NCBI GenBank assembly: GCA_017992455.1
Contig: JAGOOP010000002.1
Span: 80,912-144,911, forward strand
DNA length: 64,000 bases
DNA from: Candidatus Omnitrophota bacterium
GTDB lineage: Bacteria > Omnitrophota > Gorgyraeia > Gygaellales > Profunditerraquicolaceae
Direction: 5' to 3'
This document shows positions 25,439 through 57,014 of this stretch, in pieces. The first letter of the stretch is position 1, and every line of letters begins with the position of its first letter. The notes under the pieces are model-generated. The model made no database searches and was not told the origin of the DNA. It saw nothing but the letters and a program-made list of their open reading frames with translations. The position numbers and the translations under genes were made by a program.

Positions 25439-26595
25439 ACGTCGTATTGCTCGTTTGCGTCTATCCAATCGATAAAGTTGTTTTCACAGGCCTTCTTTCC
25501 GGTTTCCACGTACATATCGTCTATGCATCCTATTTTATCAAGGCTGTCAAGATTACATAAATACGGGGCCTTAAGCGCTTCATCGTTCTCGAAAATCAGT
25601 CTCGGATCAGGCAGGTTTATCCCGATACATTTATAAAATACATACGAAGGGATACCCCGCGAGGCGGAATAGATCAAAGAGCTGGAGATGACGGCATAGC
25701 AGGCCCGCACGCGACCCGCGATAGATTCAAGATGCATCTGTGATGTCAAGCCGCCGGTATATACGTGAACCCTGGATGAATCCAATCCGGGCATGGCACG
25801 CCCCTTATCCTGAGGATGAGGCTTACAGATGAACTGACAATCTTTATAATGATCGAACAGGGCGTCGTAAAATCTCTTGAACATGACTACATTACTCTCG
25901 ATGGACAGATCACACCCGATAGAATCAAGCTGCCTGTCGCTGTATATGATGACTATATCCCCTCTGCCGGATAATCTGCCGCGCAGCGGGCGGTAAAAAA
26001 AGAATGTTTTGTTTGCCGCTGCGCCGTTACCGAATCCGCGCTCATCGCCGAAAGCGCTCAGAAAACCTATTATTCTGTCCCTCGGTTCTTTAAAGTAAAG
26101 AAAACTTGCCAGTTTGTGGCGCCAGACAAGATTGGTTCTCAACAGAAAAGAGTATAGTATACACATTAAACTTCCGGGAATGTCGATTTGACGGCCAAAG
26201 GCATAATCCTGACGAATAGCGACCAGTTCTTTGAATTTACTTTTACGCTTCAGCGCGGAAATGATAAGATTAACCGGCAGGTACGCAGAACAGTCGGATA
26301 TGACCGTGAACTTCATGATTTGATCCAATATCGGGTTTATCTGATCATCAAACTCTTTCAGAAATCGATGCGCCTTCATTAAACCCGAGAATAGATTGAA
26401 TTTATAATTCACGTCCGGCAGCATAATGATGCGATCGGCCTTGCCGACGCACAAATTTATCACTTCAGGATTGATATACGGATGACTGCAAATGATCAAG
26501 ACCGTCAAGTAACGACCGCGCGTCCTTTCCATTACCGCCATATAATCGTTCAAAGTGCCCGGGTGATATGTTATAAAAAATATGGCTTTTTTCAT
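25432..26595 (-). CDS. Uncharacterised GT-B-like protein with an xHP motif; candidate CMP-sugar (NulO) transferase
   Basis: 387 aa. Contains FICKPHPQDKG, then about 45 aa later VISSSLIYSASRGIPSYVF. I cannot assign a family. Confidence 0.35.
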   Translation of the reverse strand: MKKAIFFITYHPGTLNDYMAVMERTRGRYLTVLIICSHPYINPEVINLCVGKADRIIMLPDVNYKFNLFSGLMKAHRFLKEFDDQINPILDQIMKFTVISDCSAYLPVNLIISALKRKSKFKELVAIRQDYAFGRQIDIPGSLMCILYSFLLRTNLVWRHKLASFLYFKEPRDRIIGFLSAFGDERGFGNGAAANKTFFFYRPLRGRLSGRGDIVIIYSDRQLDSIGCDLSIESNVVMFKRFYDALFDHYKDCQFICKPHPQDKGRAMPGLDSSRVHVYTGGLTSQMHLESIAGRVRACYAVISSSLIYSASRGIPSYVFYKCIGINLPDPRLIFENDEALKAPYLCNLDSLDKIGCIDDMYVETGKKACENNFIDWIDANEQYDVC

Positions 26596-28278: not shown

Positions 28279-29930
28279 TTCCTGTTTAATTCATGAGCCA
28301 GGCATCCCATATAGACCGAATTCGTGAATTTCCCGGCACGAAAGCACTCTTCCCTGATCAGCCCTTCTTTCTTGAATCCAACACGTTCGAACAGCTGGAT
28401 GGCCGCAATATTCTCTTGCTCCGTTCTCAAATAGACCTTATGCAGATTGAGCCTTGAGAAAGCATGATCTAATAACAGCCTCATGGCTTCGGCGGCAAAG
28501 CCTTTGCCATGGCTGTCTTTTTCACCCAATATTATGCCTAATTCGGCTTTGCGATAAAACCAGTCAATATTATGCAAGCCTAGATTCCCGATATGCCGAT
28601 CGCCTTTGCGGTCGATGATTGCCAGCACGATATCGTTCTCGCTTATCGTCATCTTGTCAAAAAAAGCCCGCATTCTTGCTTCGGAATTAGGGAAACTGCC
28701 GTTCTTCATGTACCTGGTGATGTCCTGGTCATTAAACCATTGAAAATAATCGCCGTTCAGGTCAGCAAGCTCAAGCCCCCGGAGATAACACTTTTCCCCG
28801 ATTAAAAAAGGATGGTGCAGTTTTTTATCCATCTTCCCCTCTTTGTTTATAAGATCAGATATCAATGTGTCGATCCGACGGCACGCATTGCCGTCAGATA
28901 AGAGCCAATCCGGGGCAGGCCGCATAAATCCGGAAGCGATCTCCCTGCGAATGCATAAATAAAGCTGCTGGGCGCACGTAATTATAGGGTAGCCTGCCTT
29001 TCGAGTCAATACATTTAAGTCTCTGCCCGGGACCAGATTCGGCTGAATGCTGAAAACGGGGATCCCCAGAGCTGCGGAAAAGATCAAAAGCGTGCTTGTC
29101 ATGCTCACGGCAAAATCGGAAATTATCAGGAGATCGTCAGGGTTCGCACGGTTCGTAAAAACAACCCCTTTCGCATCTTTCTTATTCAGGAAAGCAGACC
29201 TGCCGCGGGGATGCTCTTTAAAAACGGCTTTCAGGCGGATTTCACTGCGCAGGGATTTGATCGCATCGAAGAAAACAGGCAGAACATCCCTTTCATCATA
29301 GCCGAGATATTTATCCGGATAGAATTTTGATACCGGATGAGCATAGAATATAATGGCTATATCCTTCGGGCCGATCCCGTATTTTCTCCTCAGACGATCA
29401 CGGTAAGATTTCGTGCTTCTTCTTCTGCGTATTTTGTTCACGGCATCAAACTTGGGATGGCCGGTAATATGACATTTGTCGCACGGCACGCCTTCGGATA
29501 CCATTTCCGCCAGGGCTATTCGATCCATAACCGCTATTTTATCCGGAAGGAATCCGAAAGGATCGCCCGTAACAGGATCGTACAATCTGTCCGAATAATT
29601 CATCCAGGAATCTAAAATCGACAGCACGGGTATGGCATATTCTTTCCCCGCCTTGATCAAGCTATAATCAATATTGTTTTTTTCTCCAAGCAAACCCGTA
29701 ACAATGGCGTCTGGTCTGAACTTTTCAAGTATCGATCTGCATGACGCCGAACAATCCCCTGTAATTATTTTTTTGTCCGGAAGGAACTCATTATTGGCAA
29801 AAACAAGCGCGGCGTTCCTGCCGGCCATCGTAAATAAATTGTGCTTGTGTTTTTTTAAACGATTGATGACCGGCATAAGACAATCCGCGCCGCCCGCTTC
29901 GCTCGTTCCGAATAATACCTTATATCTCAT
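28275..29930 (-). CDS. Fusion protein: N-terminal GT-B-like domain with an xHP motif plus C-terminal GNAT (RimJ/RimL-type) N-acetyltransferase
   Basis: 551 aa. The N-terminal domain has FKEHPRGRS ... SMTSTLLIFSAALGIPVFS. The C-terminal roughly 170 aa read IGNLGLHNIDWFYRKAELGIILGEKDSHGKGFAAEAMRLLLDHAF...ENIAAIQLFERVGFKKEG. Confidence 0.6.
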   Translation of the reverse strand: MRYKVLFGTSEAGGADCLMPVINRLKKHKHNLFTMAGRNAALVFANNEFLPDKKIITGDCSASCRSILEKFRPDAIVTGLLGEKNNIDYSLIKAGKEYAIPVLSILDSWMNYSDRLYDPVTGDPFGFLPDKIAVMDRIALAEMVSEGVPCDKCHITGHPKFDAVNKIRRRRSTKSYRDRLRRKYGIGPKDIAIIFYAHPVSKFYPDKYLGYDERDVLPVFFDAIKSLRSEIRLKAVFKEHPRGRSAFLNKKDAKGVVFTNRANPDDLLIISDFAVSMTSTLLIFSAALGIPVFSIQPNLVPGRDLNVLTRKAGYPIITCAQQLYLCIRREIASGFMRPAPDWLLSDGNACRRIDTLISDLINKEGKMDKKLHHPFLIGEKCYLRGLELADLNGDYFQWFNDQDITRYMKNGSFPNSEARMRAFFDKMTISENDIVLAIIDRKGDRHIGNLGLHNIDWFYRKAELGIILGEKDSHGKGFAAEAMRLLLDHAFSRLNLHKVYLRTEQENIAAIQLFERVGFKKEGLIREECFRAGKFTNSVYMGCLAHELNRK

Positions 29931-31219
29931 ATTTCATTTCTCAGGCTCATTAATTCATCCCGGTGATCGATCACTTTCTGTATCGCATCGATCACAAGAT
30001 CCATGTCAGACTCAGTGTTCGGCCAGCGCACTAACGTTTCGATAAAAAAAGAGGTTTCTTCGGAAGCTTCGGCCTTTGGACAGATACCTCTGGAATATTT
30101 CGTTTTTCCGTAATACGGCGGTTTACATTCGCCGCTCTTACCGGCATATTCGGACATGTGCTGGTAAATCGGCAGATAATACAGCGGAGATCCCCAACGC
30201 GAAAAAACAGGAATACCCTCCGCACGGATAGCTTTGGCAAACAGGTCCAGGGGTATTCCGGCCTTAACAGCATCGTAAGACATATGATATAAATAATACA
30301 CGTGCGTACAATCATCGGCGACAAAAGGCGGTTCGATAAAATCAAAGGTCGCTCTTATCCGCTTTGATAAATACTGCGCCAGCCTTTGCCGCCATTCGTT
30401 GAGCATCTTCAGCTTATTCAGCTGATGATACCCGACAGCCGCTTCCATTTCGGTCATGCGCAGATTAAGCCCAAGGATATCGAGCTCAGGCCGGTGAAAG
30501 CCGGCTGTACAGTTCTCGCCGTGATTCCGCACAAGACGCAACCGAAAAGCAAGCTCTTCATCATTCGTAACAGCTATTCCGCCCTCGCCCGTCTGAATGG
30601 TTTTATGGCAATTGAGGCTGAATACCCCTATATCTTCTATGCAGCCGGCAAACCTGCCTTTATACAGGGCTCCGGGCGATTGCGCGTTGTCCCCCAATAC
30701 AAAAAGTTTATGTTTACGCGCGATCTCCATTATCGGGTCCATGTCTGCAGGATGGCCGGCAAGATGTACCACAAAAATTGCCTTTGTGCGGGATGTAATA
30801 TGCTGCTCAACCGATACAGGATCTATATTCATGGTCTGAGGATCGATATCGGCAAAAATCGGGATTGCATTGTTGAAAAGAATGGCGGTCCCTGTAGCGC
30901 ACATGGTCAGTGGCGGCAAGATAACTTCGTCCCCCGGACCTGCGCCGCATGCCGAAACAGCAGCCATCAGCGCGCAGGTTGCCGAGTTCATGCTTACGGC
31001 GAACTTGACGCCGAAATAATCCTCCCACGCCCGCTCGAGCTTTTTTACTTTCGCCCCCCCCAGGAAACCGTCATTCGCAGCGCCGAGATACGCCGAAAGT
31101 ACGCCGCTGTTCAACACTTCCATCACTTCTTTTTTTTCGTTGTCGTCTATCGTATTGTAGGCCGGGAATTTCTTGCTGATGACCGGTTTACCGCCCAATA
31201 GAGCCAATGCGCCTTTCAC
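29927..31219 (-). CDS. DegT/DnrJ/EryC1/StrS-family aminotransferase (long form)
   Basis: 430 aa. GTG start at 31219 with GGAGG 5-6 nt upstream. Contains MNSATCALMAAVSACGAGPGDEVILPP and NCHKTIQTGEGGIAVTND. Confidence 0.85.
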   Translation of the reverse strand: MKGALALLGGKPVISKKFPAYNTIDDNEKKEVMEVLNSGVLSAYLGAANDGFLGGAKVKKLERAWEDYFGVKFAVSMNSATCALMAAVSACGAGPGDEVILPPLTMCATGTAILFNNAIPIFADIDPQTMNIDPVSVEQHITSRTKAIFVVHLAGHPADMDPIMEIARKHKLFVLGDNAQSPGALYKGRFAGCIEDIGVFSLNCHKTIQTGEGGIAVTNDEELAFRLRLVRNHGENCTAGFHRPELDILGLNLRMTEMEAAVGYHQLNKLKMLNEWRQRLAQYLSKRIRATFDFIEPPFVADDCTHVYYLYHMSYDAVKAGIPLDLFAKAIRAEGIPVFSRWGSPLYYLPIYQHMSEYAGKSGECKPPYYGKTKYSRGICPKAEASEETSFFIETLVRWPNTESDMDLVIDAIQKVIDHRDELMSLRNEI

Positions 31220-31233
31220 GATGACCTCCGGCT

Positions 31234-32982
31234 TTATGACACCTTCTCCCAGGAACTCTGTCTTCTTAAAGACAATCGCAATTTAGCGATGATCTTAATC
31301 GCCTGCAATGCATCTTCTCCGGAACACCTGACCATACCTGAGCCTTCCAGGGCATCAGTCAGGTTGCTGACAGCGTTCACCATATATTCACCGCGCTTAA
31401 TGTTAAACGGCATTGCCTTCTGAAGTTTCAGCTCCTGTATGCCGCTTTCATAAAGGCTGCGTCCGCTTTTATAAAATTCCGCTATCCGGTCGTTATCCGC
31501 CAGCCGTATCCTTCCTTTACAGCCCATAATATCGATTTCCGTCGTGAAATGACACCGATAATCGCCGCAGGTCAAATGAACCGTGATCCCATTGCAAAAA
31601 TTCAATATTCCGGAAATATTCGTATCCCCCGTGTCCAAAACCCGGCTGCCGGTCGCAATGACACTTTTTACATCGCCGAAAAGGTATCTTAAAATATCGA
31701 TCGCATGTGAACCGCTGTTGAAAATACCCTTACTGTAATGGTACCGCACCAGAAAAACCCTGCCGATGATATTTTTCCGCAGATTTTCTTTAAGTCCCTG
31801 GTAAACGTCAGAATACCGCATCCAGTGATTCACGGCCAGGATCACATTTTTTTTAAGGCAAAGATTTATAGTCTGTTCACCCGTCCGTACATCCCTTACG
31901 AACGGCTTTTCGCACAATATGGCCTTAACTCCGTGTTTTACACATAGCCTGACTATGCTTGCATGCGAGTCAACGGGCGTACAGACCGAAACAATCTCGG
32001 GCTTCGTTGTTTTAAGCATTACCTCCGGATCGGAAAAAACAGCGTTTATACCCCACTTTTTTTTAAAAAGTATTCTTTTCAACGGATCGGGGTCGCAGCC
32101 GGCAACCAGATGCGTTTGAGACCAGCGCATATACGCCCCGCTATGCGTATTGACGCCGGCCATTTTTTTGTCAAGATCATACAGGGAGCCGATATTCCCC
32201 AGGCCGATGACCGCAGCGCTGTGCTTATTTTGCCTGATTCTATTGTTGATCTTCATTATCTGAGGATTCTTTTTAAGAAAACGGACTATATCCTCCCCTG
32301 TAAAAAATTCCCCTTTTCGCATAAAATGAACAAATATCTTATTGATAACAACCAGATCTTCTTTTGTATCCAGGCATATCCTGATGCCCGGCCCGGCTAT
32401 GGATCTGTCGGCGGCCAGCGTCGCTGATGTAAAATCGGGCCGGGTATAAAACGGCTCGGTGACATGCTGTCTCAGCCACGGATCGTCTGCCAATTTATCC
32501 GCCTTTTGCAGAGACCTGGTATAAAAAACCTCTACATCCAGGCCGTTGGGAAAGCTTAATGCCGCATCGGCATCCTTTCCCCATTGAAAATTCTTAACGT
32601 AATCTGTTTTCGAGGCAAGAAAAAACCTGACCATTTTATCTATGATGCCGGGATCGCTGAACGGGCAGTCACCGGTTAAATGTACAACGATATCTAATCC
32701 TGCGCTCCTGGCTGCACCCAGAACCCTGGAAAGGACATCTTCTTCGCTGCCGCGATATGACCGCACCTTAAGTCTGCGGGCTAACGCGCATATCGGGTCA
32801 TCGGTCTTATGAACGGTGGTCGCGATTACAATCTCCGATACCATATCCGACCTTTTAACCCTTCTGATAAGCCATTCCAGTAACGGCCTCTTCAGTACCG
32901 GGGCCATTACTTTTCCCGGGAAACGGCTCGATGTCATTCTCGCAACGACGACAGCGCCTATTTTTAATTTCTTCTCGGACAT
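31234..32982 (-). CDS. Fusion protein: SpsF-type cytidylyltransferase (N-terminal) plus Gfo/Idh/MocA oxidoreductase (C-terminal)
   Basis: 582 aa. The N-terminal part reads IGAVVVARMTSSRFPGKVMAPVLKRPLLEWLIRRV...LTGDCPF. The C-terminal part reads AAVIGLGNIGS...IVSVCTPVDSH...ILCEKPF. Confidence 0.8.
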   Translation of the reverse strand: MSEKKLKIGAVVVARMTSSRFPGKVMAPVLKRPLLEWLIRRVKRSDMVSEIVIATTVHKTDDPICALARRLKVRSYRGSEEDVLSRVLGAARSAGLDIVVHLTGDCPFSDPGIIDKMVRFFLASKTDYVKNFQWGKDADAALSFPNGLDVEVFYTRSLQKADKLADDPWLRQHVTEPFYTRPDFTSATLAADRSIAGPGIRICLDTKEDLVVINKIFVHFMRKGEFFTGEDIVRFLKKNPQIMKINNRIRQNKHSAAVIGLGNIGSLYDLDKKMAGVNTHSGAYMRWSQTHLVAGCDPDPLKRILFKKKWGINAVFSDPEVMLKTTKPEIVSVCTPVDSHASIVRLCVKHGVKAILCEKPFVRDVRTGEQTINLCLKKNVILAVNHWMRYSDVYQGLKENLRKNIIGRVFLVRYHYSKGIFNSGSHAIDILRYLFGDVKSVIATGSRVLDTGDTNISGILNFCNGITVHLTCGDYRCHFTTEIDIMGCKGRIRLADNDRIAEFYKSGRSLYESGIQELKLQKAMPFNIKRGEYMVNAVSNLTDALEGSGMVRCSGEDALQAIKIIAKLRLSLRRQSSWEKVS

Positions 32983-32984
32983 AT

Positions 32985-34394
32985 CTAAATATTGAGATAT
33001 TTATGCATCAACGGTTCATATCGCTGCATAAGCGGCAGCAGCTCTTCACGCGCCTCAAGGGCTCCTATATACATCATGCCGGACTTTTCCCGGTAATCCC
33101 ACCAGTCATGCACGCTCCAATCACGGCAATGATCAAGCCTGGCCACCAGATAAGAAAGCTCGTTCAACCGTGACCAGTCGAACGAGAGATCGTCTATAGC
33201 GTATTTTTTTTTGGCAATATCCCAGTATGGCGTTGCCGGAAACGGAGTAAGGATGGAATTCCCGCCGGTCTGGATCTTTTTTTTAGAGAAATTGTCAAGC
33301 ATCGCCTCGTATGTAATCTTGATATCGTCTTCTGTCTCATTTGGATGGCCTATGATAAAATTCCCGCCGGCTTTCATGCCGCAGCCGAAACAAATATCAA
33401 TGGCTTTTTGGTTCGCCTCAGGAGTGATCCTTTCCCCTTTGTATATATTCAGCATCCTGCGGGAAAAAGACTCGAATCCGAACAGTACGCATTTTACGTT
33501 CATGCTCTTTAAAACTCGTATGATCTCTTCACTGACGCAATCCACCCTTCCGTATACCACAAATTCAAGATCGTTTATCGTATCGTTATTGATGATCAAC
33601 TCGGCCATTTTTTTCAGCCGGTCCGGAAAAAGCATCATTATGTCATCACGAAATACCACGGTGCGGGCCGCTGGATTTTTATTTTTGAGAGCGACCAGAT
33701 CTGCCACTACCCATTCGGGAGAATGCAGCCTGACCTTTCGCTCCCACAGCAGATAATTTACGCAGAAATCGCAATCGTAAGGGCAACCCCTGATAGTGAA
33801 GACCGCGGCAGGGGCGCGATCCGTAAAATAGTCCCTGTTGAATGAAGGTATTATATCGATGTTCCGGATTAATGTCCGGGGAGGATTGGATTTAAGCTCG
33901 GCGTCTGACCAAAAAGAGATCCCTGCAACCCCGTTCAAATCGACCGGCGCAAACCGGCCCCGAGAGGCAAGATAACTCAATTCAAGCAGGGTCAGTTCTC
34001 CTTCCCCTCTTACACCGATGGCGCCCCTGGGCAGCGTCCTGCCAAGACAGGAAACATGCGCTCCTCCAAGCAGCAGTTTGCTCGAAGGCGAGAGCCCGGA
34101 TAATTTATCAATAACGTCGAGTGCTTCGTTATAAACAACCGACACCGAGGAAATCCCAATAAGGTCATATTTGTTTTTTTTAACCGAATCGAAAAAAACA
34201 TTCCTGTTGAGGGTCGTAAAAGTATCAACGCGTACTTTCCCGCCGCTGTATTTCTCTACGAAAGATTTCAGTGCGCCTATGCCAAGCCCGATATCCGGCC
34301 GGTCAACACCCGTTCTCACACATTGATACAGGGCCAGCTTGATCGTTCTCGGGAAACGATACTCCGGCACCTCGGCTGCGTCTTCCCTATTCAC
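32985..34394 (-). CDS. B12-binding-domain radical SAM enzyme (class-B rSAM, methylase-like)
   Basis: 469 aa. GTG start. The N-terminal part is a cobalamin-binding-like Rossmann region (YDLIGISSVSVVYNEALDVI). The rSAM motif is RGCPYDCDFC. Confidence 0.75.
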   Translation of the reverse strand: MNREDAAEVPEYRFPRTIKLALYQCVRTGVDRPDIGLGIGALKSFVEKYSGGKVRVDTFTTLNRNVFFDSVKKNKYDLIGISSVSVVYNEALDVIDKLSGLSPSSKLLLGGAHVSCLGRTLPRGAIGVRGEGELTLLELSYLASRGRFAPVDLNGVAGISFWSDAELKSNPPRTLIRNIDIIPSFNRDYFTDRAPAAVFTIRGCPYDCDFCVNYLLWERKVRLHSPEWVVADLVALKNKNPAARTVVFRDDIMMLFPDRLKKMAELIINNDTINDLEFVVYGRVDCVSEEIIRVLKSMNVKCVLFGFESFSRRMLNIYKGERITPEANQKAIDICFGCGMKAGGNFIIGHPNETEDDIKITYEAMLDNFSKKKIQTGGNSILTPFPATPYWDIAKKKYAIDDLSFDWSRLNELSYLVARLDHCRDWSVHDWWDYREKSGMMYIGALEAREELLPLMQRYEPLMHKYLNI

Positions 34395-35520
34395 ATTTAT
34401 GCTCTGTCTTTTTGATCAGGTTCATCAGGTTTCTATACTTGCCGCTTGATTGCATGCGCGGGTCTTTATTGTTTTTCATAAGATAGCCCGCATAATGCTT
34501 TGCCTGCCGTACAACGGCTTGCACTATATATTCCTTATAATCTTTCAGTATATTATACTCGTCCGACCATAAACAGTTGCAGCCGGAACAGATCGTGCCG
34601 TTCTTCTCTATTTGAGAATAATCGCGGTCTAAATGAGCCCGGCGGAAAGCTTTGCTCTTCTTATTATTCCACATCCGGCGCAATGACGTGTTCCTGACGT
34701 TGCCGAGTGACCAGCGCACATCGAAATCTACGGGACAAAGACAGACCTCTCCGTCCCAGTTGACCGTGATGTCCTCCCAGGGAACGCGACAGACCGGCCA
34801 TTTGCTTTGGGGCAGGGGCTTCTGCAGGGATTTAAGATCGATCTGGGCAGCTGTGCCGGCTTCATTCAGCATGGTCAGCAGCGGGTTCAGGAATACTTTA
34901 TCAACCGGCAATAAATACATGTTCTTCTCGAAGCGCTTTGCGTATTTTTTAAACTCGTCCGTCATTACGGCGGATATACAGACGTGAGTATAATGGCCGT
35001 TCTGTTCGTTCATTTTAAGAAAACCCAGGATATTGCGCAAAACCGTGTCGTATTTCGCCCTGACCCTGATCTTCTCGTATATCGTTTTCGATATGCCTTC
35101 AAAACTGAAAACAACCCTGTCGAGCTTCAAATGGATCAGATCACTCGCCAGGGCCCTGGTCATCCTTGTACCGTTCGTAAGCAATGAAACATGGCATCCG
35201 CTTTTTTTTGCATAAGCCACCATATCGACTATTCTGGGGTGGAGCAACGGCTCTCCCTGGACATCTAAAGTTATAGCGCATCCTATCGGTCCTATTTCAT
35301 CGATGACTTTTTTATAAACCTTCCACTCCATCAACCCCCGCGTGCGCTTCATTTGTTCCTGTATGCAATGTATACAACGCAGATTGCACAGATTCGTGGG
35401 CTCAATATGGACATGCTGCGGGAAGAACGGGGCTGTATCGCTGATGTGCTGTATATATTCGAATTGATCTAAATACCGTTTTACCTGCCGGTAAAAATTA
35501 TCCGGTGGTGCCTGTTTCAT
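34387..35520 (-). CDS. Radical SAM / SPASM-domain enzyme
   Basis: About 377 aa. ATG at 35520, in a TGATG junction with the upstream gene. Contains EPTNLCNLRCIHC. C-terminal Cys clusters read CRVPW...GEVCLCPVDF...GTICSGCNC. Confidence 0.8.
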   Translation of the reverse strand: MKQAPPDNFYRQVKRYLDQFEYIQHISDTAPFFPQHVHIEPTNLCNLRCIHCIQEQMKRTRGLMEWKVYKKVIDEIGPIGCAITLDVQGEPLLHPRIVDMVAYAKKSGCHVSLLTNGTRMTRALASDLIHLKLDRVVFSFEGISKTIYEKIRVRAKYDTVLRNILGFLKMNEQNGHYTHVCISAVMTDEFKKYAKRFEKNMYLLPVDKVFLNPLLTMLNEAGTAAQIDLKSLQKPLPQSKWPVCRVPWEDITVNWDGEVCLCPVDFDVRWSLGNVRNTSLRRMWNNKKSKAFRRAHLDRDYSQIEKNGTICSGCNCLWSDEYNILKDYKEYIVQAVVRQAKHYAGYLMKNNKDPRMQSSGKYRNLMNLIKKTEHKCE

Positions 35521-36833
35521 CAAAGATCTCCTTCCGTATCGGATTTATGGCGTTTGAAAACATTCTGCGGAGGCATCCCCGACAAATATTTCTTTATATT
35601 TCCGTCCTTAAGCGCTTTACAGCAAACACCGCAGGCAGCGTCGAAAGCAGCGAGGGTCTTCTTTATATCCTGGGGTGTATGGGAAAAGGACATGTACTGA
35701 AGGCCTCCGATAAGTACCCCCCTGCTGACCGTTTCCTGGAAAAACAGGCCTTTCAATTCGTTGTACTCGCTGCCGTCCGGGGCGACAAAATCGATCCAGA
35801 ACTTGGGGCTCAATCCTTTGACCTTGATCCATTGCCCCAGGCGATGTTCATCGACGAGCGCCTGGGTCCCGTTCTTGAGCAGGTCGCCCATCTTCCAGAA
35901 TCGGTCCTGCACCCGTTTCTGCCTCATCAAAGAGATCGTGGACCTCGCAGCCGCAAGGGACAGGGTTTCGCCGCCGTATGTGGTCGAGAAGAACATCCGG
36001 CAGGCCTCCTTCATGATCTGCCTCCTGCCCACGAGCACGGAGATCGGCAGCCCGTTTGCCATGCCCTTGCCAAAGGTCGCCAGATCAGGCGTGATGCCGT
36101 AATATTCCTGGGCGCCGCCAAGGGCAAGTCTGAAGCCTGTGACGATCTCGTCAAAAATCAGCACGGCGCCGTTTTTGCGCGCGATCTGCTTCACCCGTGC
36201 CAGAAAACCGGGCTGCGGAAGCTCCACCGATACCGGCTCCATGATGACCGCTGCGATCCTGCGGGGATGCTCGGCAAATATTTTTTCAAGCGACGCGGGA
36301 TCGTTGTACGTAAAGGGATGAATGAGTTCTTTCATCGCGCGGGGCACACCGAGATCGTGTTCGGTGCTGGCGATATACCAGTCATGCCACCCGTGATACC
36401 CGCAGACCGCAACGTGCTCCCTGCCGGTATAAATCCTGCTCAGCCGGACGGCGGCAGACGTCGCGTCGGCGCCGTTTTTTGCGAACCGCGACATATCGGC
36501 GCACGGGATACACTCCCGCAAAAGCTCAGCCACCTCGACCTCGAGAACATTCATCAACGAAAAAGTGCTGCCTTTCTTCATTTGGTCGCATACCGCCCTG
36601 ACCGTCGCGGGATAATTGTAGCCGAGCGTCACCGGCCCGAGCGCAAGCGGATAATCGATGTACTCATTCCCGTCGACATCCCAGACATGGCTCCCCTGGC
36701 CATGGTCGAGATATATCGGATACACGCCAAATGTGAACATGTTCGGGCCTTTCGACAGCGTTTGTGTCCCCCCGGGGATCACCGTGAGGGCGCGCTTCCA
36801 GTACGCAAACGATTTCGCCAGGGATCTTTTCAC
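35520..36833 (-). CDS. Class-III PLP aminotransferase (glutamate-1-semialdehyde 2,1-aminomutase-like)
   Basis: 437 aa. GTG start with AGGAGG about 8 nt upstream. Contains GYHGWHDWY and FDEIVTGFRLALGGAQEYYGITPDLATFGKGMANGLP. Confidence 0.85.
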   Translation of the reverse strand: MKRSLAKSFAYWKRALTVIPGGTQTLSKGPNMFTFGVYPIYLDHGQGSHVWDVDGNEYIDYPLALGPVTLGYNYPATVRAVCDQMKKGSTFSLMNVLEVEVAELLRECIPCADMSRFAKNGADATSAAVRLSRIYTGREHVAVCGYHGWHDWYIASTEHDLGVPRAMKELIHPFTYNDPASLEKIFAEHPRRIAAVIMEPVSVELPQPGFLARVKQIARKNGAVLIFDEIVTGFRLALGGAQEYYGITPDLATFGKGMANGLPISVLVGRRQIMKEACRMFFSTTYGGETLSLAAARSTISLMRQKRVQDRFWKMGDLLKNGTQALVDEHRLGQWIKVKGLSPKFWIDFVAPDGSEYNELKGLFFQETVSRGVLIGGLQYMSFSHTPQDIKKTLAAFDAACGVCCKALKDGNIKKYLSGMPPQNVFKRHKSDTEGDL

Positions 36834-51062: not shown

Positions 51063-53765
<2,703 letters not shown>

Positions 53766-53884
53766 GCTTTTCTTTCGTGCGCACAGGCGAGCTTTTCGCT
53801 TTATTGCGCATTAATACCCGTTCGGCTGCAAGGGTATTATGATTAATTTTATGATTTTTTATTTTATCACAATTCTATTCTCTG
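53766..53884 (-). promoter_or_regulatory. AT-rich non-coding gap between the peptidase gene and gmd; candidate terminator/promoter region
   Basis: A 119-nt AT-rich non-coding gap, one of only three gaps over 100 nt in the window. It contains an 8-bp stem (53812-53819 / 53832-53839) and, on the minus strand, TTGTGA...TAAAAT-like hexamers with sub-optimal spacing. The evidence is weak. Confidence 0.3.
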
Positions 53885-55717
53885 TCAAGAGGTTAGGACA
53901 AATCGGGACAAAATTTCCTGCCTGATTTTAACCAGGGATCCAGGGCGCTCGATCAGGTCGGTCGCGCTCCAGGCATCGGAACAGAATCTTTGCATATACG
54001 CGTACGGCAGGAAGCCGTACCCTTGCTTCGCCCAGGCCTTTCCCCATGAATTCTTGAACGTGAACGAACCCTTGCCGTCATCATACCCGGTGATGCATAC
54101 CGCGTGGCCGCCGAGCGCTTCCTCGCCTTTTGCGGGCATGGGGATCATGCCGGTCCTTTCGACTGACTTAGTGAACCATGACTCATACACCAAGACCCCC
54201 GCAAGGAACGGCCCGTTCACATAAAGGCTGCGCTTCATCTCCGACAAAGACGAAAGTCTCGCATAGGCCTTGATCCGGTAGATCTTTGCTTTTGTGTCCG
54301 CGCCCTTTTTGTATTTGTCGGTCTGATAGGGCTTATACGGCCAGTAAGACTCAGGGCACACGCCGTGCTTAAGCAGCATTTTCATGGCAATGCGCGGATA
54401 CGTGCCTTCCTCGCCCGGAATGCCGTCGTATTGTTTGCACAGGCTGTACACATATCGGGGGGATAGAGACATGGTCTTCTTATATTCTTTCGTGTCCTCG
54501 TATTCCTTGACTCCGACAACGCTCGCGAACGCGACACAATTCCCGGAAATTAACACTTTGCCATTACGCCGCGTTACTAATAATGAATTGGGCACAGTTG
54601 CGCAATAAACCGTCCCCTTGTACGACTTCGTATAAATTTGTTTTTTTCTGTCTATAGATGACTGTGAAGTTCTCCATACGGAGACAACAAAACCGTTGCC
54701 GCAATTTTTAGCCCTTATCCATCTCCGGTTATATATCAATTTATCCCGCGCCGGCCTTATTCTGATAGAGGAGTTTTTTCCTGTTTTAAAAACCAATTCC
54801 TGCAAATCATCAGCCATTCTCTTACTGCGCGTATAATACCAAATTCGGCCATCATGCGTTTTATGACCATCTCCTAACATAAAAAAATCAAGAAAGACTT
54901 GGATTTGCGAGGTTGGAGCATTTTTGACAAAGTCTGGAATAAATTTATTGCGCGAACCATTCACGGAATATATTTTTAAAAAATTATATAACTCTTTATC
55001 GTAAACGATAAAATAGCCCTGTCTACTTGGTTGCTCCTTAAAATTAAAAGGCAGTTTTCTTATTAACGTGCAAACAGAATCATAATATTCTTTTTTAAAG
55101 CAGCATACTCCGACGCAATATCCATAACGCGATGATTTTCTTCTTCTCACCCAGCCATCAGACAAAAAAATACCCAGAAACTTAAAGAAATCATCACCGT
55201 TAACCATCTTATTCCCTATTTTTATTTTTTTTACATATTTGCCATCGAATTTATTAGGAGCACTCAACAATCCTGAATACCAGGTTAAATCCTTAATTTT
55301 AATAAATTCGTACCTGGACGACAAGACACAACCTATATTGTCAAATTTTCTTACAAACATTCTGTGATCGGGGGTCACAGCGAAATCAAGGTGCACATTG
55401 GAAGAACAGTATAAGTCGCCGTTAAACTCGTATGAATGCAATTGAGAGGACATTTCATATTCCAAGTTAAAAGTATTTGGGTTGATGGTTGCAAGTTCAT
55501 CTTTATAATTGATTGCAGGGAATAATTTCCAGCCATTTCTTGTCAAAATTTCAGTGTCTGCTGAATGACAGGTCCCTTCATCGCCCTGGTCCCGGACAGG
55601 GGTCATACTCCTGGTATAATCCACTTTGCCCGGGACCCGGATCTCCGGCAACACAAAACCCATGGGGATATCCCGCAGGTCAACCGGGTCTTTGCGGCAG
55701 CCGAGCGCATAGATCAT
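53885..55717 (-). CDS. Papain-family (C1) cysteine peptidase precursor interrupted by an intein (266-aa peptidase after excision of 344 aa)
   Basis: ATG at 55717 with AGGAG 7 nt upstream; the track ORF starts 17 codons earlier, inside the SemiSWEET gene. The N-extein ends ...VRDQGDEGT and the C-extein starts CVAFASVVG. The C-extein carries GGHAVCITGYDD and FKNSWGKAWAKQGYG (the His and Asn/Trp blocks of C1 peptidases). There is no signal peptide. Confidence 0.88.
   Translation of the reverse strand: MIYALGCRKDPVDLRDIPMGFVLPEIRVPGKVDYTRSMTPVRDQGDEGTCHSADTEILTRNGWKLFPAINYKDELATINPNTFNLEYEMSSQLHSYEFNGDLYCSSNVHLDFAVTPDHRMFVRKFDNIGCVLSSRYEFIKIKDLTWYSGLLSAPNKFDGKYVKKIKIGNKMVNGDDFFKFLGIFLSDGWVRRRKSSRYGYCVGVCCFKKEYYDSVCTLIRKLPFNFKEQPSRQGYFIVYDKELYNFLKIYSVNGSRNKFIPDFVKNAPTSQIQVFLDFFMLGDGHKTHDGRIWYYTRSKRMADDLQELVFKTGKNSSIRIRPARDKLIYNRRWIRAKNCGNGFVVSVWRTSQSSIDRKKQIYTKSYKGTVYCATVPNSLLVTRRNGKVLISGNCVAFASVVGVKEYEDTKEYKKTMSLSPRYVYSLCKQYDGIPGEEGTYPRIAMKMLLKHGVCPESYWPYKPYQTDKYKKGADTKAKIYRIKAYARLSSLSEMKRSLYVNGPFLAGVLVYESWFTKSVERTGMIPMPAKGEEALGGHAVCITGYDDGKGSFTFKNSWGKAWAKQGYGFLPYAYMQRFCSDAWSATDLIERPGSLVKIRQEILSRFVLTS
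54539..55570 (-). mobile_element. Intein (344 aa) with an embedded LAGLIDADG homing-endonuclease domain
   Basis: Cys1 codon TGT at 55570-55568. Block A is CHSADTEILTRNGW. Block B is VTPDHRMFV (TxxH). The LAGLIDADG motifs are FFKFLGIFLSDGWV and VFLDFFMLGDGHK. Block F/G is VYCATVPNSLLVTRRNGKVLISGN, ending with the Asn codon AAT at 54541-54539. It is followed by the +1 Cys codon (TGT) at 54538-54536. The DNA is visibly more AT-rich than the flanks. Confidence 0.85.
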
Positions 55718-55727
55718 GGCAGTACTC

Positions 55728-55982
55728 CTATTTTTTATAGCGAAAATACAGGATGAACGCAGCAGCAAGGACCAGGAGAGTCACGGTATTGGCGCTGATG
55801 ATGACGATGTTCTTCAGATGCACTCCGTACGACACCCACAGGGATATCCCCACCGCGAACTGGATGAGCGCGAGCAGGCTGATATCCTGCACTGACTTTG
55901 TCTTATATATCTTTATCACCTGCGGAACGAACCCGAACGACGTCAAAAGCGCTGCGCCAAACCCCACGATTTCCCAGTACAT
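55728..55982 (-). CDS. SemiSWEET (PQ-loop) sugar transporter, 3-TM half-transporter
   Basis: 84 aa with three TM helices and a PQ motif in TM1 (SFGFVPQVIKIYKTKSVQDIS). It closely resembles characterised bacterial SemiSWEETs. Confidence 0.88.
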   Translation of the reverse strand: MYWEIVGFGAALLTSFGFVPQVIKIYKTKSVQDISLLALIQFAVGISLWVSYGVHLKNIVIISANTVTLLVLAAAFILYFRYKK

Positions 55983-56000
55983 GCGATTCCCTTTCGTTTA

Positions 56001-57014
56001 TTAAAACGGTATGGTGACCCCTGCGTCGACGCTTCGTTCCCGCGCGGTCTTTTTCAAACGAATAAAAAGATCAGCGTCCAGCTTTGCGAGAAAGCGACGC
56101 GTGAATATAAGCCTGCCGCCCAGATCTTCTCCCTGCGCGCCGATCAGAGCGGCTTCCATGCGGTCCTTTTTGCTCACATCGAACCGGCAGCCGAATTCAA
56201 GCGAACACACCCTGCCTTTTTCATATTCCATTTCAAAGCTGGGCGCGAGCTTCCTGCCGATCTTCCACTGCCCGTACAGGCAAATGATCGTCGGATGGCC
56301 TTTCCTGCTTTGCCGCACGCCGGTTCCGAGCCGGTATTTTATAACGCCGGCTTGCGGATAAATATTCGGGGTTTCAAGATGCGCCCTGAGATCAAAGCGC
56401 GAAGCCGAGCCTTTTCGCAGAACATATGAGATCCTGTTCGATGCGCTGACCTGCCAGGAGCCGGTGAATTCGACAATCGATATGGTTTTATCCCTTCGCG
56501 CGAGATCATATTTTTCAGCGGTATAGGTTATCTGCTGGTTATCGTTGACCGACCACGTTCCCGAAAGCGTCAAAACGTCAGGCCGGTCTTTTTTCGCAAC
56601 AGAGAAAATGATGCGGTTTGCGTCATCCGAACCCCACGCACCGGTCAAACGCAGCAGCCGGCTGTGTATATTCCCTCTTGTATCGAGCGAACGGGATTCG
56701 AATATAAGCGCGTTCTCCTGGGCTGAAATAATCCTGCCGATTAAGGTAATACGGGATACGCCGGAAAGCGCTTCAGGCATGTATGACGCTTTGGAAACAG
56801 ATAATTGAAGGTCGTCCTGCCCGGTCAGCTTCCAGGAGCCGGTAAACGCGATCTTTGAAGGAAGGTTGTGAACCCAGCGCCACGCAGGCGGGCTGTTAAG
56901 CCAGTACTCAAGGCCATTGCCGGCGCTTACGCGGAACGCGCCGTTGACGTAGACAGTCTTGCCTGCGCGCGTAATGCGCAGGCGGTTGGTTTTGGGGTCT
57001 GATGAATATTTCAC
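56001..57014 (-). CDS. Uncharacterised repeat protein (five or more copies of a hydrophobic-x-[FL]-[TSY]-G-x-W ... N/D-x-[LI]-x-[FY] unit)
   Basis: 337 aa, GTG start. The repeats are KIAFTGSWKLTGQDDLQLSV, LLRLTGAWGSDDANRIIFSV, VLTLSGTWSVNDNQQITYTA, IVEFTGSWQVSASNRISYVL and IICLYGQWKIGRKLAPSFEM, plus a degenerate VNGAFRVSAGNGLEYWL. There is no signal peptide or TM span. Confidence 0.6.
   Translation of the reverse strand: MKYSSDPKTNRLRITRAGKTVYVNGAFRVSAGNGLEYWLNSPPAWRWVHNLPSKIAFTGSWKLTGQDDLQLSVSKASYMPEALSGVSRITLIGRIISAQENALIFESRSLDTRGNIHSRLLRLTGAWGSDDANRIIFSVAKKDRPDVLTLSGTWSVNDNQQITYTAEKYDLARRDKTISIVEFTGSWQVSASNRISYVLRKGSASRFDLRAHLETPNIYPQAGVIKYRLGTGVRQSRKGHPTIICLYGQWKIGRKLAPSFEMEYEKGRVCSLEFGCRFDVSKKDRMEAALIGAQGEDLGGRLIFTRRFLAKLDADLFIRLKKTARERSVDAGVTIPF

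What the first reader, a model, noticed from the sequence alone, without database searches (positions are those of the whole stretch)
54539..55570. LAGLIDADG intein inserted exactly at the catalytic cysteine of a papain-family (C1) peptidase
The peptidase motif stops at ...VRDQGDEGT and resumes 344 aa later at CVAFASVVG. Joined, the two parts read Q-G-D-E-G-T-C. This reproduces the six-residue spacing between the oxyanion-hole Gln and the nucleophile Cys in papain (Q19...C25). The His block (GGHAVCITGYDD) and Asn/Trp block (NSWGKAWAKQGYG) follow downstream.

The insert has all the intein hallmarks, read directly from the translation:
- Cys1 and block A (CHSADTEILT);
- block B TxxH (TPDH);
- two LAGLIDADG dodecapeptides that retain their acidic residues;
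- block F/G ending in ...LISGN, followed by Cys+1.

The splicing +1 nucleophile is therefore the protease's own active-site Cys. The enzyme cannot be active before splicing, which would make this an intein-gated zymogen. The Cys1/Cys+1 pair would also allow redox-conditional splicing, but that is speculation. The penultimate residue is Gly rather than the usual His.

Classical intein hosts are replication, repair and nucleotide-metabolism proteins. As far as I know a C1 peptidase host is not a described insertion site.
Basis: partly seen in the sequence, partly recalled or inferred. Interest (0 to 1): 0.9.

Follow-up and report, generated by a model that had tools for sequence, protein, structure and literature searches.

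The report
Intein splitting a papain-type protease's active site
A self-splicing, mobile protein insert (an intein carrying its own homing endonuclease) sits directly in front of the catalytic cysteine of a papain-family protease in an uncultured Omnitrophota bacterium, and hundreds of related copies at the same spot, mostly in phages, suggest a large host family for inteins that the literature I could search does not describe.

Summary
Window 54539..55570 (- strand) is a 344-aa in-frame insert in a 610-aa gene (53885..55717).

**Host protein**
- Removing the insert gives a 266-aa protein that matches Pfam Peptidase_C1 continuously.
- The joined motif is identical to more than 100 insert-free Omnitrophota orthologues (DQGDEGT|CVAFAS). 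Two of these sit in the same gene neighbourhood.
- The residue after the insert aligns with Cys25 of papain-type enzymes.

**Insert**
- It is an intein with Cys1, TxxH, two LAGLIDADG motifs, terminal Asn and Cys+1.
- The AlphaFold model best matches solved endonuclease-containing inteins.
- It aligns end to end with a known mycobacteriophage intein.
- It is GC-poor (36% against 55% for the host gene) and under purifying selection.

**Family**
- 117 related peptidases carry this intein at the same or the adjacent residue. All four that I examined in context lie on phage-like contigs.
- The penultimate Gly and a block-F Cys are signatures of this intein family. The experimentally spliced Bethlehem gp51 intein shares both.

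**Verdict**
- This is a genuine intein of a known kind in a host protein I found described nowhere.
- "Intein-gated zymogen" holds only in the trivial sense. Regulated or redox-gated splicing is untested.
- Splicing itself is inferred, not shown.

The parts
53885..55717 (-). Complete precursor gene: 610-aa C1 peptidase interrupted by an intein (stop codon 53885..53887)
   Evidence: ORF list and translation. GGAG 8 nt upstream of the ATG. Identical protein on 12 metagenome contigs and in NCBI as HNQ50920.1 / MBP6919688.1, named 'C1 family peptidase / hypothetical protein', Candidatus Omnitrophota.
55571..55717 (-). N-extein, residues 1-49, ending ...VRDQGDEGT. Holds the oxyanion-hole Gln44 (55586..55588)
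   Evidence: Gln44 is invariant in 111/111 aligned homologues. It aligns with the QG of cathepsin K.
54539..55570 (-). Intein, 344 aa (precursor residues 50-393): Hint splicing domain split by a LAGLIDADG homing-endonuclease domain
   Evidence: AF2 model pLDDT 90.7. Foldseek top PDB hits are TliVMA, PI-PfuI, PI-SceI and PI-PkoII inteins, E 1e-17 to 2e-11. LAGLIDADG_3 scores 29.4 bits against a cutoff of 22.5. End-to-end BLASTP alignment to the mycobacteriophage Cali gp3 intein, E 5e-30. GC 36% and GC3 37% against 55% and 70% in the exteins.
55529..55570 (-). Block A: Cys1-His-Ser-Ala-Asp-Thr-Glu-Ile-Leu-Thr... (Cys1 codon 55568..55570)
   Evidence: Position 1 is Cys in 100 and Ser in 11 of 111 homologues. 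The T-E-x-L-T motif is nearly invariant.
55343..55387 (-). Block B: DFAVTPDHRMFVRKF (Thr66, His69; Met71 at B:12)
   Evidence: Thr, His and Met are each invariant in 111/111.
55151..55192 (-). First LAGLIDADG motif, DFFKFLGIFLSDGW (catalytic Asp138 of the intein)
   Evidence: The acidic residue is kept in 104/111 homologues and the Gly is invariant. Aligns with the PI-PkoII and V-ATPase intein endonuclease domains.
54863..54904 (-). Second LAGLIDADG motif, IQVFLDFFMLGDGH (catalytic Asp234 of the intein)
   Evidence: Asp is invariant in 111/111. Pfam LAGLIDADG_3 covers precursor residues 275-337.
54536..54616 (-). Blocks F and G plus the +1 residue: GTVYCATVPNSLLVTRRNGKVLISGN|C. Block-F Cys323 (54602..54604), terminal Asn344 (54539..54541), Cys+1, the protease nucleophile (54536..54538)
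   Evidence: Cys323 111/111, penultimate Gly 110/111, Asn 111/111, following catalytic Cys 111/111. Cys+1 aligns with the catalytic Cys of cathepsin K and xylellain.
53888..54538 (-). C-extein, residues 394-610: the rest of the papain-fold domain, with catalytic His538 (54104..54106) and Asn556 (54050..54052)
   Evidence: PF00112 hit. Alignment to xylellain 3ois (E 9e-27) and cathepsins. Foldseek 3ois E 3e-14, rmsd 2.8 Å. His, Asn, Ser and Trp are at least 90% conserved.

Best explanation
Window 54539..55570 encodes a genuine, probably splicing-competent mobile intein. It has a Hint splicing domain and an in-frame LAGLIDADG homing endonuclease. It is inserted between Thr49 and the catalytic cysteine of a cytoplasmic-type papain-family (C1) peptidase of a Candidatus Omnitrophota bacterium.

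**Proposed course (class 1 chemistry)**
1. The 610-aa precursor is translated. The intein separates the oxyanion-hole Gln44 from the nucleophile and sits in the active-site cleft, so the precursor is expected to be inactive.
2. Cys1 (precursor Cys50) makes an N-S acyl shift at the Thr49-Cys50 bond, helped by block B Thr66/His69.
3. Cys+1 (Cys394), the future protease nucleophile, takes over the N-extein by transesterification.
4. Asn344 cyclises and releases the 344-aa intein.
5. An S-N shift leaves the 266-aa peptidase with the native Q-G-D-E-G-T-C-V-A-F motif.
6. The freed intein acts as a homing endonuclease on insert-free alleles of the conserved active-site DNA. This would explain its spread among very divergent papain-like peptidase genes of phages and cells.

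**Shown:** the anatomy, the predicted fold, homology to known inteins, precise empty sites in orthologues, conservation and purifying selection, and the foreign base composition.

**Inferred:** that splicing and DNA cleavage actually occur, that the precursor is inactive, and the mechanistic class.
For: **Boundaries and host**
- The boundaries are exact.
- The spliced product matches Peptidase_C1 profile positions 2-199 at 81.7 bits. The precursor matches only positions 24-199.
- Cys+1 aligns with Cys25 of papain-type enzymes.

**Empty sites**
- 862 homologues of the spliced sequence were found. The best 120 are all 245-286 aa. 113 of the 120 match the uninterrupted motif pattern, with DQGDEGTCVAFASVVG the commonest form.
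- Two insert-free orthologues (87% and 82% identical) lie in the same gene order. The DNA alignment shows a clean 1032-bp in-frame insertion.
- In the 90%-identity clustering the window protein falls in a cluster represented by an insert-free 263-aa protein, which is 87% identical to the spliced product.

**Intein identity**
- AF2 pLDDT is 90.7. The best PDB matches are endonuclease-bearing inteins.
- The insert aligns residue 1 to residue 1 and Asn to Asn with the mycobacteriophage Cali gp3 nucleotidyltransferase intein (E 5e-30).

**Selection**
- All splicing residues and both endonuclease acids are conserved in 111 homologues.
- The intein shows pN 0.16 against pS 0.72. The extein has dN/dS 0.12 against an insert-free orthologue.

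**Mobility**
- GC3 is 37% in the intein and 70% in the exteins.
- Intein and extein identities are incongruent between alleles.

**Class**
- Position 1 is always a nucleophile (106 Cys, 11 Ser of 117), as expected for class 1.
- The Bethlehem gp51 intein also has a block-F Cys and a penultimate Gly. It splices completely, and G316H slows it (PMC5050341).
Against: - There is no experimental evidence of splicing or homing for this or any C1-peptidase allele.
- Pfam Hint / Intein_splicing models do not hit this sequence and hit only 3-4 of 79 homologues.
- Two residues that normally assist class 1 splicing are absent. The penultimate residue is Gly instead of His. Block F position 4 is Cys instead of Asp. 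By my own manual alignment of block F, there is also no block-F His.
- The AF2 model has low confidence exactly at the two junctions (residues 41-50 and 392-395).
- I could not read model coordinates, so I could not check active-site geometry.
Confidence: 0.85

Rival explanations
1. Same element, different chemistry. The invariant block-F cysteine (Cys323) is a catalytic nucleophile. It would act either as in class 3 inteins (first attack on the N-terminal junction, giving a block-F branched intermediate) or as a relay between Cys1 and Cys+1. That would make this a distinct mechanistic subclass with a Met-Cys-Gly signature instead of Trp-Cys-Thr.
For: - The block-F Cys is invariant in 111/111 copies, and B:12 Met is also invariant.
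- The same Cys...Gly-Asn signature dominates related inteins in other host proteins: 104 of 123 copies matched by my pattern.
- The usual class 1 helpers (F:4 Asp, penultimate His) are missing.
- Class 3 inteins use exactly this position as the nucleophile (PMC2807308, PMC7664689).
Against: - Position 1 is a nucleophile in 117/117 copies. Class 3 inteins typically lack one.
- The class 3 Trp (B:12) and Thr (G:5) are absent.
- Kelley et al. grouped the Bethlehem gp51 intein, which has the same signature, with class 1 inteins (PMC5050341).
Confidence: 0.12
2. The intein has been co-opted as a switch. Splicing would be conditional, for example blocked by a Cys1-Cys+1 or Cys1-Cys323 disulfide under oxidising conditions. 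The cell would then hold the peptidase as an intein-gated zymogen and activate it on demand.
For: - Three cysteines (Cys1, Cys323, Cys+1) would converge on the splicing centre, by analogy with other inteins. I have no model coordinates to check this.
- Disulfide-bonded precursor conformers were seen for a mutant of the related Bethlehem gp51 intein (PMC5050341).
- A DnaB intein acting as an oxidative-stress sensor is published (PMC6195587, abstract).
- The Omnitrophota enzyme gave no Pfam hit to an I29-type propeptide.
Against: - More than 100 of the closest orthologues work without the intein. Only about seven Omnitrophota-type alleles carry it.
- The intein keeps intact endonuclease motifs.
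- It has foreign base composition and a phylogeny incongruent with the exteins.
- These are all hallmarks of a selfish mobile element, not a domesticated regulator.
Confidence: 0.08
3. The insert is a decayed, non-splicing intein remnant and the gene is an inactivated peptidase pseudogene.
For: Canonical helper residues are missing (penultimate His, F:4 Asp). There is no Pfam Hint hit.
Against: - The 610-codon frame is open in AT-rich DNA (p about 2e-12).
- Every splicing and endonuclease residue is conserved.
- Purifying selection acts on both the intein and the extein.
- The identical protein was recovered in at least four separate metagenome samples.
- The missing residues are missing in the whole family, including a copy proven to splice.
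Confidence: 0.04

Closest known systems
Mycobacteriophage cluster C1 nucleotidyltransferase intein (e.g. Cali gp3; listed as 'NT' in Kelley et al. 2016, PMC5050341)
   Same: - It aligns over the full 344 aa, first residue to first residue and terminal Asn to terminal Asn (25% identity, E 5e-30).
- It shares C-x-x-D-T-E-x-L-T, T-P-x-H-R-M, block F V-C-x-T-V-P-N...L-V-T-R-R-N-G-K, two LAGLIDADG motifs and a Gly-Asn C-terminus.
   Different: The host protein is a nucleotidyltransferase, not a peptidase. The +1 residue is Thr. Identity is only 25%.
Mycobacteriophage Bethlehem gp51 (RDF / metallophosphoesterase) intein, experimentally characterised
   Same: - It has Cys1, a block-F Cys (VWCLRVPNG), a penultimate Gly (LTGN|S) and a LAGLIDADG domain.
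- It splices completely in a reporter. Changing Gly to His slows splicing (PMC5050341).
- This shows the unusual residues are compatible with efficient splicing.
   Different: Similarity is much weaker: local BLASTP E 2e-7 over the C-terminal 137 aa. B:12 is Val, not Met. The +1 residue is Ser. The host is different.
Structurally solved LAGLIDADG inteins: TliVMA / PhoVMA (7qsu, 7qss, 7qst), PI-PfuI (1dq3), PI-SceI (1vde, 1ef0), PI-PkoII (2cw7)
   Same: The architecture is the same: Hint domain with an inserted LAGLIDADG endonuclease. Foldseek E 1e-17 to 2e-11, target-normalised TM up to 0.63. phmmer to PI-PkoII E 4e-7.
   Different: Sequence identity is 10-16%. Hosts are V-ATPase, RNR and DNA polymerase. 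These inteins have the canonical penultimate His (from my own knowledge, not tested here).
Xylellain (PDB 3ois) and papain / cathepsin K: the host enzyme family (MEROPS C1A)
   Same: The spliced product aligns over about 230 residues with xylellain (E 9e-27). The Gln, Cys, His and Asn-Ser-Trp blocks are in register. The fold match has rmsd 2.8 Å.
   Different: None of these enzymes is interrupted. Classical C1A enzymes are kept latent by a propeptide rather than by an insert in the active site (general knowledge).
Class 3 inteins (e.g. mycobacteriophage Bethlehem DnaB, Mycobacterium DnaB1)
   Same: A cysteine at block F position 4. An apparent link to phages.
   Different: Class 3 inteins lack the position-1 nucleophile and carry Trp at B:12 and Thr at G:5 (PMC2807308, PMC7664689). 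Here these positions are Cys/Ser, Met and Gly.
Inteins in other proteases (chloroplast ClpP, archaeal LonB)
   Same: These are precedents for protease genes as intein hosts (PMC4760082).
   Different: They are unrelated protease folds. I did not examine their insertion sites. [quoted passage not shown]

Membership tests
Intein (Hint-domain protein-splicing element, class 1) | Nucleophile (Cys/Ser) as first residue, block A | tested here: met
   Cys50 of the precursor is Cys1. Position 1 is Cys in 106 and Ser in 11 of 117 family members.
Intein (Hint-domain protein-splicing element, class 1) | Block B Thr-x-x-His | tested here: met
   T-P-D-H at intein residues 66-69. Both Thr and His are invariant in 111/111.
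Intein (Hint-domain protein-splicing element, class 1) | C-terminal Asn followed by a Cys/Ser/Thr nucleophile at +1 | tested here: met
   ...S-G-N344 | C. Asn is 111/111. The +1 residue is Cys in 92 and Ser in 25 of 117.
Intein (Hint-domain protein-splicing element, class 1) | Penultimate His and block F Asp (usual helpers, not universal) | tested here: not met
   The penultimate residue is Gly (110/111). F:4 is Cys (111/111). Both features are shared with the experimentally spliced Bethlehem gp51 intein.
Intein (Hint-domain protein-splicing element, class 1) | Hint (horseshoe beta) fold flanking the endonuclease domain | tested here: met
   The AF2 model has pLDDT 90.7, with beta-strand N- and C-terminal parts around an alpha/beta core. 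The best PDB matches are whole inteins, E down to 1.3e-17. Sequence HMMs (Pfam Intein_splicing, Hint) miss this copy and hit 3-4 of 79 relatives.
Intein (Hint-domain protein-splicing element, class 1) | In-frame insert whose removal restores a continuous conserved host motif; insert-free orthologues exist | tested here: met
   The 120 best homologues of the spliced sequence are all uninterrupted, most reading DQGDEGTCVAFAS. Syntenic empty sites are L009 and L010.
Intein (Hint-domain protein-splicing element, class 1) | Demonstrated protein splicing (excised intein plus ligated exteins) | not testable with these tools
   Needs expression and mass spectrometry.
LAGLIDADG homing endonuclease | Two LAGLIDADG motifs, each ending in an acidic residue, in one chain | tested here: met
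   FLGIFLSD138G and FMLGD234G. The acids are conserved in 104/111 and 111/111. Pfam LAGLIDADG_3 scores 29.4 bits against a cutoff of 22.5.
LAGLIDADG homing endonuclease | Site-specific cleavage of the insert-free allele | not testable with these tools
   Indirect support only: sporadic distribution, intein/extein incongruence and foreign GC.
Peptidase family C1 (papain family) | Match to Pfam PF00112 above the curated cutoff | tested here: met
   The spliced product scores 81.7 bits against a cutoff of 20.7, over profile positions 2-199 of 220.
Peptidase family C1 (papain family) | Catalytic Gln / Cys / His / Asn in the papain register | tested here: met
   Gln44, Cys394 (six residues after Gln once spliced), His538 and Asn556 align with cathepsin K and xylellain. 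They are at least 90% conserved in 111 homologues.
Peptidase family C1 (papain family) | Proteolytic activity of the mature protein | not testable with these tools
   Needs an enzyme assay.
Class 3 inteins | No nucleophile at position 1, plus the Trp (B:12) - Cys (F:4) - Thr (G:5) triplet | tested here: not met
   Position 1 is Cys/Ser. B:12 is Met (111/111). F:4 is Cys (met). G:5 is Gly (110/111). Only one of the four features is present.
Bacterial intein-like (BIL) domains | Hint domain without a +1 nucleophile and without a homing endonuclease; mainly cleavage rather than splicing | tested here: not met
   The +1 Cys and a full LAGLIDADG domain are present. BIL definition from PMC7664689.

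The most novel reading that the evidence does not exclude
The position is not merely parasitic. Two readings remain open.
- The papain-type active site may help the intein. If the C-extein folds first, the Cys-His ion pair would make Cys+1 an unusually strong nucleophile for the transesterification step. This could compensate for the missing penultimate His and block-F Asp.
- The three-cysteine centre (Cys1, Cys323, Cys+1) may make splicing dependent on redox state.

In either reading, phages and some bacteria would hold a cytoplasmic papain-like protease as a natural zymogen activated by protein splicing.
Probability: 0.1. Interest if true: 0.85.

Novelty: new member of a known kind. Interest (0 to 1): 0.6.

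Why it matters
**Host range.** Inteins are known mainly from replication, repair, nucleotide-metabolism and phage packaging proteins. [quoted passage not shown] Here an intein sits directly before the catalytic nucleophile of a papain-family protease, and that nucleophile also serves as the splicing +1 residue. This is not a single case. I found 117 alleles at this residue or the adjacent one, mostly phage-borne by the contexts I checked. All are annotated only as "C1 family peptidase" or "hypothetical protein".

**Annotation.** Standard Hint HMMs miss this intein clade, so intein counts in phage and metagenome data are probably underestimates.

**Mechanism.** The clade's invariant block-F Cys and penultimate Gly deserve a mechanistic test.

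**Application.** A protease that becomes active only after splicing is a natural template for conditionally activated proteases.

**Open debate.** It also gives a clean assay, protease activity, for the question of whether inteins can act as post-translational switches.

Tried and rejected
**Tests that gave nothing**
- Pfam and NCBIfam Hint / Intein_splicing models gave no hit on this sequence. NCBIfam gave only weak hits to intein-containing replication proteins.
- An Rfam scan of 53500..56200, run to exclude a group I/II intron or other RNA element, found nothing.
- No tRNA gene lies in the window.
- Six of the seven literature searches, on inteins in papain / C1 / cysteine peptidases, in Omnitrophota, and in intein catalogues, found nothing relevant. 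Targeted reading of three intein surveys also found nothing.

**Ideas considered and rejected**
- Class 3 intein: rejected because Trp, Thr and the missing position-1 nucleophile are not met.
- BIL domain: rejected (+1 Cys and an endonuclease are present).
- Assembly chimera: rejected (12 contigs, at least four samples).
- Pseudogene: rejected.

**Things I could not do**
- The GTDB species-representative scan did not return the window's own genome. The best peptidase match was 37% identical, so the organism is assigned only from NCBI protein names.
- DNA for the closest intein-bearing allele, P0001, was unavailable. The intein dN/dS therefore rests on P0003 alone, with saturated dS.
- Model coordinates cannot be read, so I could not measure Cys1-Cys323-Cys+1 distances.
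- I did not test for a signal peptide. "Cytoplasmic" is my reading of the N-terminus only.
Full report
**1. The observation**

The region lies in one long ORF on the minus strand, 53885..55768. The likely start is the ATG at 55717. It sits 8 nt after a GGAG and directly after the stop codon of the upstream gene, and it gives 610 aa.

The protein reads ...VRDQGDEGT, then CHSADTEILT...LISGN, then CVAFASVVG.... The middle part is exactly 344 residues and maps to 54539..55570.

The insert is 36% G+C, against 54-60% for the two flanks. At third codon positions the values are 37% and 70%. With the insert's base composition, an open 344-codon frame has a chance probability of about 2e-12. The other five frames carry 12-37 stops each.

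The identical protein is on 12 contigs, and the four places shown come from four different metagenome samples. In NCBI it is HNQ50920.1 / MBP6919688.1, named "C1 family peptidase" or "hypothetical protein" of a Candidatus Omnitrophota MAG. It is therefore a real feature of a real genome.

**2. The host protein**

- The full precursor matches Pfam Peptidase_C1 only from profile position 24 onward (65.3 bits).
- With the 344 residues removed, the 266-aa product matches positions 2-199 continuously at 81.7 bits.
- Against solved structures, the spliced sequence aligns with xylellain (3ois, E 9e-27) and with cathepsins. The pairing is vrdQGdeGtCvaFas against vknQGqcGsCwaFss of cathepsin K.
- The residue after the insert is therefore the papain Cys25 equivalent. 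GGHAV pairs with the catalytic His block and KNSWG with the Asn block.
- The AlphaFold model of the precursor (111-sequence alignment, mean pLDDT 90.7) also matches xylellain at rmsd 2.8 Å.

**3. The insert is an intein**

- Pfam finds LAGLIDADG_3 above its cutoff, but no Hint or Intein_splicing model. That negative result is a property of this intein clade. Among 79 relatives, only 3 reach Intein_splicing and 1 reaches Hint_2.
- The fold evidence is clear. The best PDB matches of the model are whole endonuclease-bearing inteins: TliVMA 7qsu (E 1.3e-17), PhoVMA, PI-PfuI, PI-SceI and PI-PkoII.
- The predicted secondary structure is beta-strands, then an alpha/beta core, then beta-strands, as expected for a Hint domain split by an endonuclease.
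- By sequence, the insert aligns from its first to its last residue with the intein of mycobacteriophage Cali gp3 nucleotidyltransferase (E 5e-30). That intein allele is listed by Kelley et al. (PMC5050341).

**4. Empty sites**

A search with the in-silico spliced protein found 862 homologues. The best 120 are all 245-286 aa, up to 87% identical, and several are named C1 family peptidase of Candidatus Omnitrophota. Of the 120, 113 match the uninterrupted motif pattern, with DQGDEGTCVAFASVVG the commonest form, and none is longer than 400 aa.

Two insert-free orthologues sit in the same gene order: ManC, UDP-glucose dehydrogenase, epimerase, a 337-aa ORF, an 84-aa PQ-loop protein, then the peptidase. 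The nucleotide alignment shows a clean 1032-bp in-frame insertion.

In the 90%-identity clustering the window protein falls in a cluster represented by an insert-free 263-aa protein, which is 87% identical to the spliced product. The same holds for another intein-bearing allele, P0004.

**5. A large family, mostly phage-borne in the contexts checked**

The full protein finds 203 homologues. Nearly all are about 600 aa with the same insert. In 117 of them I could place both junctions:
- 81 have Cys1 with Cys+1, as here.
- 25 have the intein one residue upstream (...G | intein | S-C...), so that Ser is the +1 residue. These mostly form one intein clade.
- 11 have Ser1. These form one clade.

Contexts of four distant members are phage-like:
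- L005 has a portal gene and many ORFans.
- L011 (contig of 137 kb) and L012 (contig of 209 kb) look like large phages. L012 also has an RNA-polymerase subunit with a second LAGLIDADG insert.
- L089 is an IMG/VR contig with virion-type neighbours.

IMG/VR holds 268 relatives. Some spliced phage exteins match PHROG 16701, "peptidase". Species-representative genomes with intein-bearing peptidases include Omnitrophica UBA1562, Abditibacterium, Thaumarchaeota, Chloroflexia, Pseudonocardiaceae and the cultured Arthrobacter terricola JH1-1.

The six Omnitrophota inteins form one clade. Their nearest outgroup, P0007 / L089, is on a viral contig. Intein identities between alleles (64-82%) do not track extein identities (48-76%). 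Together with the low GC, this indicates horizontal movement.

**6. Family signature and selection**

In 111 aligned copies the following are invariant or nearly so:

| Position | Residue | Count |
|---|---|---|
| Position 1 | Cys / Ser | 100 / 11 |
| B:7 | Thr | 111 |
| B:10 | His | 111 |
| B:12 | Met | 111 |
| Block F position 4 | Cys | 111 |
| Penultimate | Gly | 110 |
| Terminal | Asn | 111 |
| Catalytic Cys after the insert | Cys | 111 |
| First endonuclease acid | Asp/Glu | 104 |
| Second endonuclease acid | Asp | 111 |

Between the window and allele P0003, the intein has pN 0.16 against pS 0.72. The extein has dN/dS 0.12 against an insert-free orthologue. Both parts are under purifying selection.

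The same clade occupies other hosts:
- a PurD-like ATP-grasp protein (my reading of the sequence) in many archaea and Saccharibacteria;
- GpA-type terminases;
- ThyX of Fervidibacter sacchari;
- a tape-measure protein;
- phage DNA polymerase I.

An exhaustive phmmer search finds 10,078 representatives at E ≤ 1e-3 and 662 at E ≤ 1e-30. Their block F/G copies are again mostly Cys...Gly-Asn.

The Bethlehem gp51 intein has the same block-F Cys and penultimate Gly. It splices completely in a reporter, and restoring His slows it (PMC5050341).

**7. Mechanism**

Because position 1 is always a nucleophile, class 1 chemistry is the best reading:
1. N-S shift at Thr49-Cys50.
2. Transesterification to Cys394.
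3. Cyclisation of Asn393.
4. S-N shift, yielding the 266-aa peptidase.

The freed intein then acts as a homing endonuclease.

Class 3 membership fails on three of its four defining features. The invariant block-F Cys is still unexplained, so I keep a class 3-like or relay role as the main rival.

Precursor inactivity is an inference from geometry. Gln44 and Cys394 are separated by the insert, which sits at the N-terminus of the active-site helix.

**8. Is it a regulated zymogen?**

Nothing supports regulation. Most close orthologues lack the intein. The endonuclease motifs are intact. The composition is foreign. Intein and extein histories disagree. These are the marks of a selfish element.

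Redox control is conceivable. Three cysteines could meet at the centre, disulfide-trapped conformers were reported for a mutant of the related gp51 intein, and a published DnaB intein acts as an oxidative-stress sensor (PMC6195587, abstract only). It remains speculation.

**9. Novelty**

No paper in the searchable library links an intein to a papain-family peptidase. The sources checked include two actinophage intein surveys, the Novikova survey, the Anaeramoeba survey and a 2023 survey of papain-family evolution.

Known protease hosts are ClpP and LonB. [quoted passage not shown] The library lacks most subscription journals, so prior description cannot be excluded.

I file this as a new member (a new host family and insertion site) of a known kind of element. 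Interest is moderate to high, not exceptional.

**10. Context**

The window is a one-strand cluster of nucleotide-sugar and surface-glycan genes, flanked by TyrRS and ribosomal protein S1. It has no tRNA genes, and Rfam finds no RNA-family match around the gene. The ten largest other ORFs scanned show no intein or LAGLIDADG domain.

Noticed in passing
Homologues P0008-P0120 (no window coordinates); junction equivalent to window 54536..54541: The same intein family occupies two insertion points one residue apart in papain-like peptidases. In 92 of 117 it sits directly before the catalytic Cys (+1 Cys). In 25 of 117 it sits one residue upstream (...G|intein|S-C, +1 Ser). 20 of those 25 form one intein clade, so the intein appears to have slid by one codon.
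   Followed up: partly
window 54602..54604 (Cys323 of the intein) and 55355..55357 (Met71): Block F position 4 is Cys and block B position 12 is Met in 111/111 copies, with a penultimate Gly in 110/111. The same Cys...Gly-Asn signature recurs in related inteins of other host proteins and in the experimentally spliced Bethlehem gp51 intein. Its role is unexplained.
   Followed up: partly
L019, L020, L024, L034, L051, L056 (match at about 3001-4065 in each): Many Nitrososphaerales, DPANN archaea and Saccharibacteria carry a close relative of this intein in what looks to me like a PurD-type ATP-grasp protein (junction ...STGEMG|CYD...CGN|T...). I did not confirm the host protein's identity with a family search.
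   Followed up: no
L060, L063 (terminase), L075 (ThyX, Candidatus Fervidibacter sacchari PD1 chromosome), L072 (tape-measure-like protein): The same intein clade is in GpA-type large terminases, in ThyX of a cultured Fervidibacter strain, and in a long tape-measure-like protein. This shows repeated switching between host proteins.
   Followed up: no
L012 13893..16934: The 209-kb phage-like contig that carries an intein-bearing peptidase also has an RNA polymerase Rpb1_5-domain gene with a LAGLIDADG_3 hit. This is probably a second intein in the same genome.
   Followed up: no
L039 (Arthrobacter terricola JH1-1, NZ_SMRU01000009.1) and L108 (IMG/VR UViG_2868057807_000004): A cultured actinobacterium carries an intact intein-bearing papain-like peptidase (NQGNTGS|CHDPETEILT...LISGN|CTANAA). 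A near-identical match sits on an IMG/VR viral contig, so this is probably a prophage. It offers an experimentally tractable system.
   Followed up: partly
window 56001..57014 and 55728..55982 (- strand): A 337-aa ORF with no Pfam match and an 84-aa PQ-loop / semiSWEET-like membrane protein always precede the peptidase in Omnitrophota contigs, whether or not the intein is present. This looks like a conserved three-gene unit of unknown function inside a nucleotide-sugar cluster.
   Followed up: no
window about 24000..36000: A 12-kb stretch of the glycan-synthesis cluster has 43-50% G+C, against about 55% elsewhere. It includes a flippase-like gene, a radical-SAM / B12 gene and two large ORFs without Pfam hits. 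It may be a horizontally exchanged serotype-type cassette.
   Followed up: no
window 54539..55570: PHROGs matches the intein's first 92 residues to positions 89-179 of the 866-position 'thymidylate synthase' profile phrog_85. That profile therefore appears to include an intein, an annotation trap for phage pipelines.
   Followed up: no
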